A DNA stretch of 64,000 nt from assembly GCF_041886205.1 (NCBI RefSeq), contig NZ_CP169029.1; one strand, 5' to 3'. Both the position numbers and the translations under genes were made by a program. Positions 39,455 through 46,455 of this stretch are shown piece after piece. The stretch comes from Escherichia coli. Its GTDB lineage: Bacteria; Pseudomonadota; Gammaproteobacteria; Enterobacterales; Enterobacteriaceae. Each line of letters starts with the position of its first letter. Positions within the stretch are counted from its first letter, which is position 1. The notes under the pieces are model-generated. The model was given only the letters and a program-made list of their open reading frames with translations. It had not been told where the DNA came from and made no database searches.

Positions 39455-40275
39455 AGATGAATAAATCCGTCGTAGACATGTACCGCCGGGCCAGTCATAT
39501 ATAACGGGTGACCCGGACCTTTCCAGGCGATATCAAGACGACCGCCGGGGAGTTCCACGCGTACTTCTTCGGCCAGCAAACCTTGCTGAATCCCTACCGC
39601 CACCGCCGCACATGCGCCGCTGCCGCAGGCCTGGGTTTCTCCTGCCCCACGCTCATAGACGCGTAAACGAATATGCTCGCGCTTAACCACTTGCATAAAA
39701 CCGATATTGGCGCGCTCCGGAAAACGTTCGTGGCTTTCCAGAACAGGACCAAGCGTTTCTACCGCCGCAGTATCGACATCATCGACCTGAATCACGCAAT
39801 GCGGATTTCCCATCGACACCACGCCGCATAAGATTGTCTGCTCGGCAGCGCGCATAATATAGGTCTTTTCCGCTTTGTTAGCGCGAAACGGCACGGCAGA
39901 AGGTTCGAAGTTGGGTTCGCCCATATTTACGCGGACCAGATCGTCATCGGTGACGGTCAGAACCATCCGCCCGTTGGCGGTGCTGACGCGGATATCGCGC
40001 TTATTGGTCAGCCCTTTCAGACGCACGAAACGGGCAAAGCAGCGCGCGCCGTTGCCGCACTGCGCCACTTCACTGCCATCAGCATTGAAAATGCGATAGT
40101 GAAAATCCAGTTCAGGATCATACGGCGGCTCAACCACCAGCAACTGATCAAACCCTACCCCCAGGTGCCGATCCGCCAGGCGACGAATCAGTTCCGGTGA
40201 AAAAAAGACATTCTGCGTTACCGCGTCGACGACCATAAAATCGTTGCCAAGGCCATGCATTTTCGAGAACTGCAT
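39451..40275 (-). CDS. dapF: Diaminopimelate epimerase DapF
   Basis: 274-aa product from [21 protein letters not shown]... with catalytic Cys motifs. Confidence 0.96.
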
Positions 40276-40311
40276 CATTTACTCCAATCACGCGGGTACA
40301 GAAACTGACTT

Positions 40312-40515
40312 TTAGTAATTCACCTGGGATGGACCATCGCCAGTGGCACGGTCGTTTTTATCCGGCACCGTGGATTGCGTTTGTGTCTCTACCGGTTTGG
40401 TCGGCGGCGGTGCATTTTTATCTGCAGGCGGGAAATAGAGCGGACCTTTCAGACCGCAGCCCGTCAGGCTGAAGAGAGTAAGTAATACAGTGAGTGCCTT
40501 AAACACGTTTTTCAT
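40312..40515 (-). CDS. yifL: Small lipoprotein YifL (LptM)
   Basis: 67-aa ORF MKNVFKALTVLLTLFSLTGC..., lipobox LTGC, Pro-rich tail. Confidence 0.92.
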   Translation of the reverse strand: MKNVFKALTVLLTLFSLTGCGLKGPLYFPPADKNAPPPTKPVETQTQSTVPDKNDRATGDGPSQVNY

Positions 40516-40703
40516 TATGGATTGCCTGTAAAGTTCATCGCTTTCTGCTTTCTATCATCGCAGGAGAAGGCGTAAAAGCAAGCGTTTAGCGACTCTTTAT
40601 GAAGTCTGAAAAGTGAGGAAATGCTGCGAGTATAACGCTTACTCGTGGGGATTTATGTTTTGCTGGTAGTTTCGTGATCGGCACCTCGCGCCAGGATGGC
40701 TTT

Positions 40704-42182
40704 ATGCACTATCGCAATGTGGTTTGTTTGTTGTCTTGTTCGTTGTTTTTATCGTCGGCATGGGGATGTCGGCTTGATGAGCCGGAACATAATATTTACC
40801 AGAAACAGGGAAAAGGCGTGGTGTACCTGCGCCCTTATAAAGAAACAAATCTTTCTCTACCTGACGTGAATTACAAGAGTTTGCGTCGTTTACCTAATTT
40901 ATTAATAGACGCAACAACACAAGATGAATGGAATAAAGAACCACCTCTGACTGATCTAACAACTGACAACCTCTATGAGGGCGCACAAGCCTGGTATCCC
41001 CATTACTCCTGGCATAGCGATGGTCGCTATATCCTCTACGCGGGTGAAGTAGTGCAAAATCCTCACGACGCACCACCCGTCGATATCGCCTCATTCAAGG
41101 CATGGGGAGATTTTGCCGCAGATAAACACAGTCTCTATTTTGAAGGCAAGCGCACCGATAACAATGGCGGGGGAAATCGCTTAGATATCAAAACACTGCA
41201 TCAGGTGGAATTCCGGCCTCCCTGGGATCCTGACTTACTGGGGCTGATATTACGTGACGCTAATTTCTTGTATATCAATGGGCATCGCCTCGCAGATCCC
41301 GATAGTTTCCGTGTGCTGGCACAAAAGTCATGGGATCAACGAGGAAAGTTTTCTACCGCGTTTAATCCCTGTGTGGCTATGCCATTTGGCCCATGGGATA
41401 CCCTGGCTCGTACACGGACCAAAATCCTGATCAACGGCGAACAGCTTGATGCCGACCCGGACACTTTTTCCGTCGTGCGCTGGATGCCCGGCTCACTCTT
41501 GACCTGGCGTGATAAAAACGGGCTGCAGCGTAAAGTCCTCGACAAGGAAAATCTGGCGTGGGATGAGGATTTAACAAAGCACTGTCTGGATTTTTCTCTG
41601 CTGGAAAAGAAAGTGTTCTGGCGTCGGGGGCCTGACTGTAAACAGGAAGAATTACCGGGACTCGATCCGGAACAGTTTCACCCCATCAGTGATGCTGTCG
41701 CACAGTATCAGGACTCGCTTTATACCATCATCGAAACAGAGTCTGGTGACCGCAAGCTGGAGATCGTGAAACTTGATGATCCTAATCTTATTATCAACAA
41801 ACGTTTCAACGCCGGGAAACGCCACGGCTATTTACTTACGCGTGCCGAAGGGTGGCCAAACCATTCCGGTTTACACGTGTTTGAATCTGATGGACCGCTG
41901 ATCTTACTGGATAACCGCTCTCCGGATGAACGCGAAGCCCATCTTAATGACCATCCCTTTTTGCGCAGATGGTATGCCCGCGATAACCGCTACGTTTACA
42001 GCTTTGATGGCGCGCAGCTCTGGCGATACCGCACCGCGGATCCGAAACAAGTTCGCTTAATCTGGAAGGAACAACATTCGGGATATGGCTATGGCGTAAA
42101 TTACAAAACGGGATATCTGGACGGAAAAATTACCGATGACGGCGAATTTATTCCTGCCCCGCGCAATGAGGCGACAAAATGA
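40704..42182 (+). CDS. Exported repeat protein with DKNYY-like motifs, function unknown (paralog 1 of a tandem pair)
   Basis: 492-aa ORF from ATG 40704 with AGGA 5 nt upstream (in-frame GTG at 40674); N-terminal hydrophobic signal MHYRNVVCLLSCSLFLSSAWGC; repeated D-x-x-SF...DK-x-x-LY-[FY]-x-G-K motifs such as VDIASFKAWGDFAADKHSLYFEGKR; not matched to any K-12 protein I recall. Confidence 0.75.
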   Translation: MHYRNVVCLLSCSLFLSSAWGCRLDEPEHNIYQKQGKGVVYLRPYKETNLSLPDVNYKSLRRLPNLLIDATTQDEWNKEPPLTDLTTDNLYEGAQAWYPHYSWHSDGRYILYAGEVVQNPHDAPPVDIASFKAWGDFAADKHSLYFEGKRTDNNGGGNRLDIKTLHQVEFRPPWDPDLLGLILRDANFLYINGHRLADPDSFRVLAQKSWDQRGKFSTAFNPCVAMPFGPWDTLARTRTKILINGEQLDADPDTFSVVRWMPGSLLTWRDKNGLQRKVLDKENLAWDEDLTKHCLDFSLLEKKVFWRRGPDCKQEELPGLDPEQFHPISDAVAQYQDSLYTIIETESGDRKLEIVKLDDPNLIINKRFNAGKRHGYLLTRAEGWPNHSGLHVFESDGPLILLDNRSPDEREAHLNDHPFLRRWYARDNRYVYSFDGAQLWRYRTADPKQVRLIWKEQHSGYGYGVNYKTGYLDGKITDDGEFIPAPRNEATK

Positions 42183-43501
42183 ATGGTCAAATAATCACTG
42201 TTGCACTCATCCTGTTGGGGCACATATTTCTGACGCCTGCTGTACAGGCCATAGGGTTCGACTATTACAATGATCACGGTGTTATGTCTTACGGTAAAGG
42301 TTATGGGGAGGATGAGAAAATCATTGCCCAATTTCCGAAGATGAACAGAGCCGATTTGCGCCTTGTGACAAATATATCCGGGGAGCGGGAGTTGGTGGAA
42401 GGCTATATACCCACCGATGAAATAAGCATAAAAAATGAGGAATACCACTGGGTGACAGACGGCCGCGTTATTCTCTGGCGTGGCAAAATCGTTAGCAATC
42501 CACCGGGAACACCCACTGTCGATATTGCCAGCTTTCAGGCTATGGGCCGCTTCGCGGTCGATAAATATAGCCTCTATTTTGACGGACAGCGCACCGAAAG
42601 TAATAGCGGCGCGTCACGTGTTGATCTGGCGACACTAAAAGCTATCGAAGGTAACTCTACCACGCTGGTGGATAGTAAAAATCTCTATTTGTCCGGTCGA
42701 CGTCAGGGGAGCAGCAGTAATGTTACTGTATTAGAAAAAAGATGGTGGGGTATTAATCCACGTCTTATGAGTGTAAACAGAAATTTGTATTCCAATGATC
42801 TGCTTATCCGCAGTGGGCAGAATATTTATTTAAATGGCGTTCACCTTACGGCGAATGCAGACTCATTTGAGATAATTCGCTGGAGACCTCATTCACTGCT
42901 GGTTTTTCGCGACAATAAGGGTCTGCATCGTTATCCCTTTGGTCAATTATCAGGCAAGGCAATACCCGTAGATGATGACGTCTCTTTTGAAGTAGGGGAA
43001 AGTCGCGTTCGCTGGCGTAAACAGCTCACGTCCGACCGTCAGTGGAGCAAGTGGATAGACCTACCAGGTATTGAACCTGAACAATTCCATCTGATTACTG
43101 GCAATATTGCGCAGTATAAAGATCGTCTGTATGTAACAAAATTATCGACTTTTGGTGAAGACCAGCTTGAAATAATTCTGCTGGATTCGCCAGACCTGGT
43201 CATTGATAACTCATTTAATGGCGGCAAACAACATGTTTACTTTATCCGCCAATTACGGTCAAAGAGCGTGCAAATTATTCCAACTAACGGCCCGCTAATT
43301 AAAAACGATCGCTTCGCTTATGACGATCGCAATGTTTATACATGGACCGATACAGAGGTAAGGATTACGCCCTCCCCCTGCCCGGCGAAAACACACGTCA
43401 GAGAAGAGAATGTGCGTGAACTTCACAACAGAGACATTATTATTCCGTTGACGGATGAATCATGCCAGAACGCAGCAGACGAGCAAACTTTGAAGCCCTG
43501 A
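42179..43501 (+). CDS. Exported repeat protein with DKNYY-like motifs, function unknown (paralog 2 of a tandem pair)
   Basis: 440-aa ORF; ATG overlaps the upstream TGA (ATGA); GAGG about 9 nt upstream; signal peptide MNGQIITVALILLGHIFLTPAVQA; aligns with the upstream ORF (VDIASFQAMGRFAVDKYSLYFDGQR, PGIEPEQFHLITGNIAQYKDRLY). Confidence 0.75.
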   Translation: MNGQIITVALILLGHIFLTPAVQAIGFDYYNDHGVMSYGKGYGEDEKIIAQFPKMNRADLRLVTNISGERELVEGYIPTDEISIKNEEYHWVTDGRVILWRGKIVSNPPGTPTVDIASFQAMGRFAVDKYSLYFDGQRTESNSGASRVDLATLKAIEGNSTTLVDSKNLYLSGRRQGSSSNVTVLEKRWWGINPRLMSVNRNLYSNDLLIRSGQNIYLNGVHLTANADSFEIIRWRPHSLLVFRDNKGLHRYPFGQLSGKAIPVDDDVSFEVGESRVRWRKQLTSDRQWSKWIDLPGIEPEQFHLITGNIAQYKDRLYVTKLSTFGEDQLEIILLDSPDLVIDNSFNGGKQHVYFIRQLRSKSVQIIPTNGPLIKNDRFAYDDRNVYTWTDTEVRITPSPCPAKTHVREENVRELHNRDIIIPLTDESCQNAADEQTLKP

Positions 43502-43548
43502 CCCCATGCCGCTATACTGCCGCCATCACTTAAAAACAGGATACAACA

Positions 43549-43869
43549 ATGAACGACAGTGAATTTCATCGCCTGGCTGATCAACTCTGGCTGACCATTG
43601 AAGAACGCCTGGACGACTGGGATGGCGACAGCGATATCGACTGCGAAATCAACGGCGGTGTACTGACCATTACCTTTGAAAACGGCAGCAAAATCATTAT
43701 CAACCGCCAGGAACCGCTCCACCAGGTATGGCTGGCAACCAAACAGGGCGGCTACCATTTTGACCTGAAAGGCGATGAGTGGATTTGCGATCGCAGCGGC
43801 GAAACCTTCTGGGATTTGCTGGAACAGGCGGCGACGCAGCAGGCGGGTGAAACAGTCAGTTTCCGCTAA
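43549..43869 (+). CDS. cyaY: Frataxin homolog CyaY (iron-sulfur cluster assembly)
   Basis: 106-aa [36 protein letters not shown]... Confidence 0.96.
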
Positions 43870-43908
43870 GATTGCATGCCGGATAAGCCTCGCTTTCCGG
43901 CACGCTCA

Positions 43909-46455
43909 TCACGAAAAATACTGCTGTAATAGCGGCGTGTCATGATCCTGATTGGCAGGCGGCATGTTACCGATAGATTTTGTGCGGAACGGAATCACCT
44001 GTTCACGACCATCAACCTTCACAATCTGATAGAACTGCGGCAGGTTGAAGTTGATGAAGCTTGAGCCGTAGGTGAAGCGGTCGTGCGATGACGAGTAGAA
44101 GCGACTGACGTCACGCACCAGCTCCTCTTTGCTGCCTTCGCAGTGGTGATACACCTCAACCCGGTTGCTTTCGTCGAGAATGTAGATATTAAAGCCATTC
44201 TCATCTTGCGTTTCTTCGAAAAAGAACTGGATGATCCCTTCGCTGGCAAAGCCGTCCACCACCGCCGGTAATTTGACGTGATTGGTTTCAACCTGCACTG
44301 ACAGGCCGTGCAGTTTGTTATGCGAAATAGCGCCATAAAACTCGATGGCGTTTTCCAGTTTCTGTACCGATACATTCAGGCGTTCGAAGAACAACCCCCA
44401 GGTTTGACCAGAAACGCGCAGCGCCTTGAAGCGTCCGGTTTCCTGGCGGGTGCTGGAAAGACGCAGTTCAATACACTCAGAAACCAGTTGCTGCACGCGA
44501 GTACGGATTAAGCCGCGCAGATGCTGGCTATAACAGAAGACTTCCACGCTATCTGGCGGTGCGGCGTCCTGATGCATTTTGCCGAGAATAGTTTTCAGGG
44601 CTTCGATCATCGATTGCTCGCCGTTGAAGTGCAGCGTACGCACTTCGTTCCACGAGTTGCGGTACAGCAGGTCAACGCTACCTACCAGGCAATTTTGATT
44701 CTCGCCAAAGCTGAAGACATCCAGCTTACGGAAATCAAAATGCACCACCTGATTGCGGAACGCAGCTGTCGGGTCATATTCCAGGTTAACGATAATCGCC
44801 AGATGGCGGATCTCACACGGGCTGTAGAGCGCCTTCGGTGTCGGTGCAGGTAAGCGCAGCGGGAAATGGTGCGACACGTCGGCGACCATCTCCTGCAACT
44901 TAGGCAAATCGACAATGCCGTTACCTTTAATATACAAGCGGGTGCGCGAGGTCAGCAGGCCGTTAAACCATGCCCACGCCACCAGTTTATTCAGGTAACG
45001 GTTATATTCCAGCGGCTGATGGCTGATGATCGACTCAATATTTGGCGCGCGGTTATACAGATACCAACCTGAACGGTTAGCCCGGCCCGGCGGCACATAA
45101 ATAAAGGTCAGATTCGGTTCCGAGAGATCGGGTGAAATCTGCGGGTTTACCAGAGTTACTTTACCTGGCAATGCTTCAAACGCGGCATACAGCTTACGCG
45201 TCAGCACACCGATATCCTGCGGGCTGGCGGAAACGCTAAGGTTATTGCGACGCGCAAAGCGGATCAGATTGCGGTAGCTCTGCATCATCGCGTCGAGCAA
45301 CTCGTTGTGCGCCTCACGCACCTGATCAATCTTCCAGTTAGCGCGGTTATCGAGCATTGCCAGACGAGCATCGTCCCAACCCCACTCGCTCACTAACTGG
45401 CTCAACACTGCGCGACGCCAGCCTACGCAGGCGCGTTCACGGCTGAGCTTTTCGCACACTTTTAAATAGAAGCAGCGACGTACTAAATCCAGACGGGTGA
45501 AATCTTCAATCGCCGTCAGGTATTCAGTAACACGCTCCAGCATCATGCAGTATGGATCGAGACCAAACGATACAATCTCGCCGTCGTGCAAACGCTGTTT
45601 GATATCTTTCGCCAGCAGACGTGGGTTCGGGTATTCCCAGGAATAGGCTTCCAGCAGCAGTGTTTTCAGCACCGCTTTGTATGGGGAATCGATACTCTTG
45701 TAGAGCTGCCAAAGGCTGGCACCAAAGTACTCTTCAGCAGAAAGCGAGCTTAAGCCACCGAGATCCAGCCATTCATTTGGCGTCAGCACGCCCTGCGCGT
45801 AAAGCGTCATCACATAGTCATCGTAATGCTCTTCTTCGTCGCACGGCACCATATTCCACAGAATACGCTTACCGGCGAGACGCACGGCGGTACGATAAAA
45901 TTCGTCAAGCAGCAGTATATGCTGGGTGGAGCCACAATCTTCGCCCCCCAGGCTGCCGCTTTCATTATGACGGAAGCGATTTTCATCAATCAGGAAGAAG
46001 CTGACTTCCACACCCAGCGAGGCGGCCCAGCTTTCCAGCAGGCTGCATTTACGTTGTAGTAACTGGCGCTCTTCGCTATCGAGCCAGGATTGATGACAGA
46101 CCCAGATATCCAGGTCAGAGGAACAACTTTGCCCTACGGACGAGGTGCTGCCCATGGTGTATACACCAGTAATTGGAAGCTCACCTTTCGGCGGATCCTG
46201 TACTGACATTCCACGATACAGTTCAAGCTCGTTCAGGTAGTGGCGTTGAGTTTCATCAGGCGTGTAAAGGCAAATGCCTTTGGGAACGTTACCATCAAGG
46301 TAACCCGGCATTAGCGGATGGTGATAGTGCAACAATGTCGGCAGTAGACTGTAGACCTGTTGGAATGCAGGCCCCATAGCAGCAAGCGCGCGATCCACAC
46401 GCAATTGATTTATGGCATCCAGTCTCTGTTTCAGAGTCTCAATATAGAGGTACAA
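43909..46455 (-). CDS. cyaA: Adenylate cyclase CyaA
   Basis: 848-aa ORF (M)[27 protein letters not shown]...; the initiation codon is TTG (plus-strand caa at 46453..46455), as in K-12. Confidence 0.96.

What the first reader, a model, noticed from the sequence alone, without database searches (positions are those of the whole stretch)
42170..42190. ATGA start/stop overlap couples the two paralogs into one operon
The TGA stop of the first gene (42180..42182) overlaps the ATG of the second (42179..42181), with GAGG about 9 nt upstream inside the first gene's 3' end. This is the classic arrangement for translational coupling and implies co-expression at a fixed ratio. A weak sigma70-like pair (ctgaaa ... 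tataac at about 40598..40636) lies upstream of the first gene.
Basis: seen in the sequence. Interest (0 to 1): 0.4.

Follow-up and report, generated by a model that had tools for sequence, protein, structure and literature searches.

The report
Ordinary ATGA overlap between paralogous genes
Two related E. coli genes of unknown function, both apparently exported from the cytoplasm, share a four-base stop/start overlap; the overlap is real and conserved, but it is the commonest way bacteria join genes within an operon, so it is ordinary.

Summary
The TGA stop of gene A (42180-42182) overlaps the ATG of gene B (42179-42181), and GAGG lies at 42168-42171. A and B are true paralogs (36% identity, E 2e-61). 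Both are under purifying selection and both carry signal peptides. RefSeq annotates them as hypothetical or DKNYY-family proteins.

The window is E. coli chromosome. The pair sits between lptM and cyaY in about 26% of complete E. coli genomes. Most others, including K-12, keep only a deletion remnant.

In related Enterobacteriaceae the A|B junction is always tight, from -4 to +14 nt, with a Shine-Dalgarno-like motif. Single-ORF A-B fusions occur in several genera. This supports co-transcription, and translational coupling is plausible.

Three qualifications apply:
- The arrangement is commonplace: eight such overlaps occur in this window alone.
- A "fixed ratio" is not shown, and orthologs with 12-14 nt gaps argue against a strict requirement.
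- The proposed promoter scores below chance, has a 19-nt spacer and is not conserved.

The operon probably reads through into cyaY. cyaY also has its own strong, conserved promoter that overlaps the end of B.

The function of A and B is unknown. They are all-beta proteins with no solved structural relative. Interest is low.

The parts
40312..40515 (-). lptM, transcribed divergently. It bounds the locus on the left, so gene A needs a promoter of its own.
   Evidence: RefSeq annotation of the identical locus; ORF list
40516..40703 (+). lptM-A intergenic region, which must hold A's promoter. No convincing sigma-70 site was found. The sub-segment 40595-40703 travels with A in a duplication.
   Evidence: PWM scan and consensus scan find nothing above chance. 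A ~170-nt direct duplication of 40595-40763 flanks the DUF3304 insertion in L003 and L033.
40606..40636 (+).
   Evidence: Score 4.5 against a null median of 6.57. The -10 element is not conserved in Citrobacter, Klebsiella or Pseudocitrobacter.
40693..40696 (+). AGGA Shine-Dalgarno motif of gene A, 7 nt before ATG 40704.
   Evidence: Sequence; duplex with the anti-SD -6.5 kcal/mol; conserved in orthologs
40704..42182 (+). Gene A, 492 aa. Exported all-beta DKNYY-like protein. Its signal peptide ends in a conserved A-W-G-C, so it may be a lipoprotein.
   Evidence: RefSeq CDS; alignment; dN/dS 0.09-0.19; Pfam DKNYY 21.8-21.9 bits; AF2 pLDDT 81.9
42155..42222 (+). Predicted mRNA hairpin that pairs the GAGG and the AUG of gene B.
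   Evidence: MFE -29.9 kcal/mol, z -2.37. No compensatory changes, and it is broken in Citrobacter.
42168..42171 (+). GAGG Shine-Dalgarno motif of gene B, inside the 3' end of A.
   Evidence: Sequence; duplex -5.6 kcal/mol; invariant in the E. coli alleles sampled and in Citrobacter FP75
42179..42182 (+). ATGA stop/start overlap.
   Evidence: The 61-nt junction is present at >=95% identity in 1132 complete E. coli genomes.
42179..43501 (+). Gene B, 440 aa. Exported all-beta DKNYY-family protein with a signal peptide ending AVQA.
   Evidence: Pfam 26.8 bits; dN/dS 0.14-0.50; AF2 pLDDT 80.9
43490..43518 (+). cyaY's own promoter, TTGAAG-17-TATACT. Its -35 hexamer overlaps the last codons of B.
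   Evidence: Scan; PWM score 14.06 against a null 95% value of 10.9; conserved in the 15 loci aligned (-10 in 14, -35 TTGAAG/TTGATG in 12), including the K-12 deletion allele
43549..43869 (+). cyaY, 47 nt downstream of B on the same strand with no terminator between them. It is the probable third cistron of read-through transcripts.
40861..43427 (.). Segment missing from K-12, B and most other E. coli. The deletion allele keeps the 5' end of A (up to about 40860) and the last ~74 nt of B.

Best explanation
A and B are two real, paralogous, exported DKNYY-type proteins. They are transcribed together from a still unidentified promoter in the 188-nt lptM-A spacer, most likely within 40595-40703.

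No terminator follows B, so some transcripts probably continue into cyaY. cyaY also has its own strong promoter embedded in the last codons of B.

I infer that B is translated mainly by ribosomes that have just finished A. They terminate at UGA 42180-42182 and restart at AUG 42179-42181, held in place by GAGG 42168-42171 (termination-reinitiation). I also infer that a local hairpin covering the GAGG and the AUG limits independent initiation until a ribosome translating A opens it.

The outcome would be that B is made only when A is made, and in an amount no greater than roughly that of A. This would suit two proteins that act together in the cell envelope.

Shown here: the overlap, the Shine-Dalgarno motif, the paralogy, purifying selection, the conserved tight junction, and the existence of A-B fusions. 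Inferred: the shared transcript, the coupling, the role of the hairpin, and any A-B interaction.
For: - Overlap and Shine-Dalgarno motif.
- The junction is identical in E. coli alleles whose A genes differ by dS up to 0.48. It is present in 1132 genomes at >=95% identity.
- Citrobacter sp. FP75 has the same ATGA. Other genera have gaps of +2, +4, +12 or +14 nt, each with a Shine-Dalgarno-like motif. B|A junctions between modules are 57-136 nt.
- No promoter-like or terminator-like sites above chance lie inside the pair.
- Single-ORF A-B fusions of 591-710 aa occur in E. albertii, Pseudocitrobacter vendiensis, Phytobacter, a metagenome contig and 166 E. coli genomes. This is consistent with the two products working together.
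- Hairpin over the initiation region: -29.9 kcal/mol, z -2.37.
- Literature: 4 of 5 native E. coli ATGA pairs tested were strictly coupled, and local structure at the start site was predicted for coupled pairs (PMC6728339). Short overlaps are enriched among subunits of heteromeric complexes (PMC10666635).
Against: - No expression data of any kind were found.
- The hairpin has no compensatory substitutions and is disrupted in Citrobacter.
- The Shine-Dalgarno motif is only moderate (-5.6 kcal/mol) and could also support independent initiation. One of five tested E. coli pairs, bioBF, was not coupled.
- Orthologs with 12-14 nt gaps suggest strict coupling is dispensable. Published work reads +9 to +12 nt gaps as likely independent initiation, and coupling was almost abolished at about 20 nt.
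- A and B alleles recombine independently: A dS is 0.24-0.48 while B dS is 0.04-0.09 against the same strains.
- No recognisable promoter was found.
- The locus is dispensable and has been lost by most E. coli.
Confidence: 0.62

Rival explanations
1. A and B share one mRNA, but B is initiated independently by free 30S subunits at its own GAGG/AUG. The overlap is then just compact packing left by how the start and stop codons evolved, and the A:B ratio is set by the two initiation sites rather than by coupling.
For: - E. coli uses intragenic Shine-Dalgarno motifs for de novo initiation, and bioBF behaved this way.
- Orthologous junctions with +12 and +14 nt gaps and their own Shine-Dalgarno motifs fit independent initiation.
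- The hairpin lacks covariation support.
Against: - Most tested E. coli ATGA pairs are coupled.
- The predicted hairpin covers both the Shine-Dalgarno motif and the AUG in the E. coli alleles.
- The Shine-Dalgarno motif is only moderate.
Confidence: 0.27
2. B has its own promoter inside A and is transcribed separately.
For: One promoter-like match lies inside A at 41766-41794: GTGAAA-17-TATTAT, 9 of 12 matches.
Against: - The scan found 5 sites against 5.5 expected by chance.
- The junction is tight in all genera. Fusion alleles and duplicated A-B modules keep A immediately before B.
Confidence: 0.05
3. The pair is a decaying, effectively silent relic, so the overlap has no present function.
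For: - About 74% of complete E. coli genomes carry only the deletion remnant.
- Frameshifted alleles exist (L006, L035), and one allele has a 13-nt deletion that destroys the ATGA (L036).
- GC content is low and no recognisable promoter was found.
Against: - dN/dS is 0.09-0.5 for both genes, within E. coli and against Citrobacter.
- Intact reading frames, signal peptides and about 40 invariant residues are kept across genera.
- The locus is retained at the same position in at least five genera.
Confidence: 0.05
4. Programmed recoding at the junction (a -1 frameshift) produces an A-B fusion protein like the natural fusion alleles.
For: B is in the -1 frame relative to A, and natural single-ORF A-B fusions exist.
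Against: - A stop in the B frame lies 12 nt upstream at 42167, so any slip would have to occur within GGCGACAAA, which holds no canonical slippery heptamer.
- The natural fusions lack the N-terminal half and signal peptide of B, so they are deletion products rather than read-through products.
Confidence: 0.01

Closest known systems
Native E. coli gene pairs with a 4-nt ATGA overlap shown to be translationally coupled by termination-reinitiation (hyfHI, astDB, ydbH/ynbE, menDH; Huber et al. 2019, PMC6728339)
   Same: Co-directional genes with an ATGA overlap. A Shine-Dalgarno motif lies in the last codons of the upstream gene. Local RNA structure is predicted over the downstream start site.
   Different: Coupling has not been tested for this pair. 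The Shine-Dalgarno motif is moderate. The partners are paralogs of unknown function rather than known subunits or pathway enzymes.
Classical coupling by unmasking of a structured initiation region (for example trpB-trpA and atpHA, as summarised in PMC6728339)
   Same: A predicted hairpin sequesters the downstream Shine-Dalgarno motif and AUG, and translation of the upstream gene would open it.
   Different: The hairpin here is supported only by energy (z -2.37) and not by covariation. In that mechanism the downstream protein level can exceed the upstream one, so no fixed ratio follows.
Pfam DKNYY family (PF13644), a family with no assigned function (Pfam description recalled from memory)
   Same: All 34 relatives collected match the model at E <= 0.01. 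B passes the gathering score. NCBI names many alleles 'DKNYY family protein'.
   Different: A scores below the gathering threshold. This subfamily is small (137 representatives among 1.84 billion; every locus whose genomic context was examined is enterobacterial) and always lies between lptM and cyaY. It has two beta-rich halves and a signal peptide. No function is known for any member.

Membership tests
Translationally coupled overlapping gene pair (termination-reinitiation) | Co-directional genes whose stop and start codons overlap by 4 nt (ATGA) or 1 nt | tested here: met
   ATG 42179-42181 and TGA 42180-42182; same coordinates in RefSeq
Translationally coupled overlapping gene pair (termination-reinitiation) | Shine-Dalgarno motif within the 3' end of the upstream gene at a working distance from the downstream start | tested here: met
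   GAGG 42168-42171 with a 7-nt spacer; duplex -5.6 kcal/mol; conserved
Translationally coupled overlapping gene pair (termination-reinitiation) | Independent initiation prevented, for example by local structure over the start site | tested here: inconclusive
   A hairpin is predicted (z -2.37), but there are no compensatory changes and it is broken in Citrobacter
Translationally coupled overlapping gene pair (termination-reinitiation) | Translation of the downstream gene depends on translation of the upstream gene reaching the junction | not testable with these tools
   Needs a reporter assay with premature stop codons in A
Operon (single transcription unit A-B) | No terminator or promoter between the genes, and adjacency conserved across genomes | tested here: met
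   The genes overlap; the scans are at chance level; A|B is -4 to +14 nt in every genome examined that keeps A and B as separate genes
Operon (single transcription unit A-B) | One mRNA spanning both genes | not testable with these tools
   No transcript data were found
   CTGAAA-19-TATAAC scores 4.5 against a null median of 6.57; it is absent from the scan; the -10 element is not conserved
Pfam DKNYY (PF13644) | Whole-protein score at or above the gathering cut-off of 25 bits | tested here: inconclusive
   B scores 26.8 bits (pass). A scores 21.8-21.9 bits (fail). All 34 relatives match at E <= 0.01, best 2.1e-11.
Bacterial lipoprotein (gene A product) | Signal peptide ending in the lipobox [LVI][ASTVI][GAS]-C | tested here: inconclusive
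   A-W-G-C follows the hydrophobic core and is invariant in all A-type orthologs, but Trp at position -2 is non-canonical. No lipoprotein predictor was available.
Sec-exported periplasmic protein (gene B product) | N-terminal signal peptide with n, h and c regions and an A-x-A cleavage site | tested here: met
   MNGQIITVALILLGHIFLTPAVQA|IG, with equivalent signal peptides in all B orthologs. Judged by eye from the sequence.

The most novel reading that the evidence does not exclude
A (a possible outer-membrane lipoprotein) and B (periplasmic) would form a stoichiometric heteromeric envelope complex built from a beta-repeat fold with no solved relative. The module would be restricted to Enterobacteriaceae and fixed next to lptM.

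Its features resemble those of variable surface, receptor or immunity loci:
- presence/absence polymorphism within E. coli;
- 2-4 tandem copies in some species;
- recurrent A-B fusions;
- deep allelic lineages;
- an occasional neighbouring gene weakly similar to the Tli1 immunity family.

On this reading the ATGA coupling would exist to enforce 1:1 co-translational assembly.
Probability: 0.15. Interest if true: 0.45.

Novelty: new member of a known kind. Interest (0 to 1): 0.15.

Why it matters
The overlap itself adds one more example to hundreds of closely spaced or overlapping co-directional pairs in E. coli, where the -4 ATGA overlap is the commonest spacing. It matters little on its own.

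The by-products are mildly useful:
- The 'DKNYY family' pseudogene upstream of cyaY in K-12 is the scar of a two-gene module that a quarter of E. coli strains still carry.
- cyaY (bacterial frataxin) keeps its own promoter inside the end of gene B.
- An uncharacterised, Enterobacteriaceae-restricted pair of exported beta-proteins has comparative hallmarks of working as a unit: a tight junction and repeated fusions. Nissle 1917 is a tractable strain in which to test it.

Tried and rejected
- **Literature.** 'DKNYY' gave one unrelated paper. Searches for cyaY/dapF/hypothetical, for four WP accessions and for guessed CFT073 locus tags gave nothing. A search on cyaY/promoter/transcription start/yifL gave no transcription start data for this locus in the listed titles and abstracts; the papers were not opened.
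- **Function by sequence.** NCBIfam and PADLOC had no hits for A or B. A PDB profile search found nothing at E <= 1.
- **RNA.** Rfam found nothing in 40200-44000. The junction hairpin got no covariation support.
- **Promoter.** Neither the consensus scan nor the PWM scan found a credible sigma-70 site for A on the + strand. By eye, sigmaE-like motifs were not convincing.
- **Split-gene idea rejected.** I considered that A|B is a gene split by a nonsense or frameshift mutation. B has its own conserved signal peptide, so this does not hold.
- **Recoding rejected.** Programmed frameshifting has no slippery site, and a stop in the B frame lies 12 nt upstream.
- **Recent island rejected.** I considered a recently acquired island. 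The position is syntenic across genera, which makes ancestral presence with repeated loss more likely, despite the low GC content.
Full report
**1. The observation**

The window reads ...caatGAGGcgacaaaATGAatggtc.... The ATG of the second ORF is at 42179-42181 and the TGA of the first is at 42180-42182. GAGG lies at 42168-42171, 7 nt before the ATG.

ATG 42179 is the first start codon after the in-frame stop at 42167. The next in-frame start (TTG 42215) would delete the signal peptide. RefSeq annotates the same two CDSs, overlapping by 4 nt, in the 100%-identical strain E. coli LHM10-1.

The two products are paralogs: 36% identity over 325 residues, E 2e-61.

It is not statistically remarkable. 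Rough gene calls give eight 4-nt ATGA-type overlaps in this 64-kb window, including xerC/yigA, yigA/dapF and hemC/hemD within a few kb. In E. coli the -4 overlap is the commonest spacing of co-directional genes. Spacings of -8 to +6 nt account for 707 of 2,987 co-directional pairs (PMC10666635).

**2. What the locus is**

The window is E. coli chromosome. The gene order is xerC-yigA-dapF-lptM on the minus strand, then gene A, gene B and cyaY on the plus strand, then cyaA on the minus strand.

Gene A most likely starts at ATG 40704, giving 492 aa. AGGA lies 7 nt upstream, its duplex with the anti-SD is -6.5 kcal/mol, and it is conserved in orthologs. This is also the start RefSeq uses in most of the records sampled. 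GTG 40674 has no Shine-Dalgarno motif.

Both genes are real. dN/dS is 0.09-0.19 for A and 0.14-0.50 for B, within E. coli and against Citrobacter. About 40 residues are invariant across 19 relatives.

Both proteins carry signal peptides.
- B ends in AVQA|IG.
- A ends in an invariant A-W-G-C. This is a non-canonical lipobox, so A may be a lipoprotein.

Family assignment:
- B passes the Pfam DKNYY gathering score (26.8 against 25 bits). A does not (21.8 bits).
- All 34 collected relatives match DKNYY at E <= 0.01.
- NCBI names the proteins 'hypothetical' or 'DKNYY family protein'.

**3. Distribution**

The intact pair is present in 1393-1394 of 5426 complete E. coli genomes, including Nissle 1917.

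Most other genomes carry a deletion allele. In the three examined (K-12, E. coli B and EC556) it is the same roughly 2.57-kb deletion. It removes window ~40861-43427 and leaves the 5' end of A (up to about 40860) joined to the last ~74 nt of B. RefSeq annotates this as a DKNYY pseudogene.

A third allele, in 166 genomes, is a single 685-aa ORF made of full-length A plus the C-terminal half of B.

The family is very small. There are 137 representatives at E <= 1e-3 among 1.84 billion proteins. A scan of 100,044 species genomes returned 11 loci. Ten are Enterobacteriaceae. The eleventh is a 4-kb contig 94-97% identical to E. coli, labelled as a Collinsella MAG, which I take to be contamination. 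Wherever flanking genes are present, the locus lies between lptM and cyaY, or, in Klebsiella spallanzanii, next to lptM without cyaY.

**4. Test of the operon and coupling idea by comparison**

Junctions between A-type and B-type genes:

| Genome | A\|B junction (nt) |
|---|---|
| All sampled E. coli alleles (90-100% nt identity) | -4 |
| Citrobacter sp. FP75 | -4 |
| Second module of L017 | -4 |
| First module of L017 | +2 |
| Escherichia sp. MOD1-EC7003 | +2 |
| Klebsiella spallanzanii four-gene array | +4, -4, +4 |
| Escherichia sp. E4385 | +12 |
| Pseudocitrobacter cyperus | +14 |

Each junction has a GGAG-, AGGA- or GGGG-type motif 6-9 nt before the ATG. Junctions between successive modules (B followed by the next A) are 57-136 nt.

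The 61-nt junction is present at >=95% identity in 1132 E. coli genomes. Where rows were listed, two CDSs were annotated under it.

Rare decay alleles exist. Some have a frameshift in B (L035) or in both genes (L006), and one has a 13-nt deletion that removes the ATGA.

Within the pair, promoter-like and terminator-like matches are at chance level: 5 against 5.5 expected, and 2 against 4.5 expected.

Co-transcription of A and B is therefore well supported by inference. The repeated fusion of A to part of B in four genera and within E. coli is consistent with the two products acting together.

**5. Coupling mechanism**

Folding 42130-42230 gives a hairpin at 42155-42222 in which both the GAGG and the UG of the AUG are paired. 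Its energy is -29.9 kcal/mol, z -2.37, with 2 of 200 shuffles folding as well.

Across alleles, the two polymorphic positions in its left arm switch G-U to A-U. No compensatory double changes occur, and the stem is disrupted in Citrobacter. The hairpin therefore remains a prediction.

Published tests found strict coupling in 4 of 5 native E. coli ATGA pairs. They also found structure predicted at the start site of coupled pairs, near-abolition of coupling by gaps of about 20 nt, and enrichment of short overlaps among heteromeric-complex subunits (PMC6728339 and PMC10666635).

Termination-reinitiation at ATGA, assisted by GAGG, is the most likely mechanism. Independent initiation on the shared mRNA is the main rival. 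A 'fixed ratio' is not established. The +12 and +14 nt orthologs lie in the range that published work reads as likely independent initiation, so strict coupling is probably not essential.

**6. Promoter**

- The sigma-70 matrix score is 4.5. The median best score in random 261-nt pieces of the window is 6.57, and the 95% value is 10.9.
- The consensus scan does not report the site.
- The -10 element is not conserved outside Escherichia.

No better site was found. Because lptM is divergent, a promoter must still lie in the 188-nt spacer. A roughly 170-nt direct duplication of 40595-40763 flanks the DUF3304 gene inserted in some strains, which suggests the promoter lies in 40595-40703. It may depend on an activator or an alternative sigma factor. 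Rfam finds no known RNA element here.

**7. Downstream extension**

cyaY starts 47 nt after B on the same strand, with no terminator between them. Read-through into cyaY is therefore likely.

cyaY also has a strong promoter, TTGAAG-17-TATACT (43490-43518, score 14.06). Its -35 hexamer overlaps the last codons of B. Among 15 alleles and genera aligned, the -10 is kept in 14 and the -35 (TTGAAG or TTGATG) in 12, including the K-12 deletion allele. I infer that this explains why the deletion spares the last 74 nt of B.

**8. Verdict**

The finding is real but ordinary. It is a further, untested member of the very common class of ATGA-overlapped, probably coupled gene pairs. The genes are already annotated, though uncharacterised.

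Its promoter is not supported, and it missed the link to cyaY.

The most interesting residue is the module itself. It is an Enterobacteriaceae-restricted, presence/absence-polymorphic pair of exported beta-proteins with no structural relatives and with recurrent fusions. Its function is unknown.

Noticed in passing
window 40861-43427; L004 3001-3179 (K-12 EMG2): K-12, E. coli B and most other E. coli carry a ~2.57-kb deletion of the A-B pair. In the three alleles examined it is the same deletion. It joins the 5' end of A (up to about 40860) to the last ~74 nt of B. The 'DKNYY family' pseudogene annotated upstream of cyaY in K-12 is this scar.
   Followed up: yes
window 43490-43518: cyaY has its own strong promoter, TTGAAG-17-TATACT. 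Its -35 hexamer overlaps the last codons of B (TLKP*). In 15 alleles and genera aligned the -10 is kept in 14 and the -35 in 12, and the promoter is retained in the deletion allele.
   Followed up: yes
L033 3580-5637; L027 5701-7725; L026; L028; L019 5001-6995; L016 6409-8436: Single-ORF fusions of full-length A with the C-terminal half of B (591-710 aa) occur in 166 E. coli genomes, E. albertii, Pseudocitrobacter vendiensis, Phytobacter diazotrophicus, a metagenome contig and Escherichia sp. E4385.
   Followed up: partly
L003 1392-1946 and L033 2684-3238 (between lptM and A): Some E. coli strains (for example O111:H8) carry an extra DUF3304 gene, which matches the Tli1a immunity family only weakly (19 bits). 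It is flanked by a ~170-nt direct duplication of window 40595-40763, that is, A's upstream region plus its first 60 nt.
   Followed up: partly
L009 3509-8990 (Klebsiella spallanzanii); L017 3553-9115: Copy number varies. K. spallanzanii has four tandem paralogs and no adjacent cyaY. One Escherichia-like genome (GCA_053006925) has two A-B modules in tandem.
   Followed up: partly
window 40704-43501 compared with L012-L014: The alleles are mosaic. Against the same strains, A differs by dS 0.24-0.48, B by only 0.04-0.09, and cyaY by 0.26-0.32. This implies recombination breakpoints near both ends of B.
   Followed up: no
window 40540-40590: A ~50-nt block next to lptM (ctttctgctttctatcatcgcaggagaaggcgtaaaagcaagcgtttag) is almost invariant across genera. 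It is presumably lptM's promoter or 5' leader. No Rfam match was found and no clear sigma-70 site on either strand.
   Followed up: partly
window 40624-40648: A 9-bp hairpin lies in the lptM-A spacer and was flagged as terminator-like. Its role is unknown, and it is conserved only within Escherichia.
   Followed up: no
L036 1601-1720; L035 1630-2942; L006: Rare decay alleles exist. One has a 13-nt deletion that destroys the ATGA and creates a 95-nt overlap with a new upstream ATG. Others have a frameshift in B or in both genes.
   Followed up: partly
L021 (contig labelled Collinsella sp. MAG): A 4-kb contig assigned to a Collinsella metagenome-assembled genome carries A and B at 94-97% identity to E. 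coli. This is almost certainly a binning contaminant.
   Followed up: no
window 40704-43501: GC content is lower than in the flanking genes: A 48.9% and B 45.6% (GC3 49% and 45%), against 52-56% in the neighbours. The locus is nevertheless syntenic across genera.
   Followed up: partly
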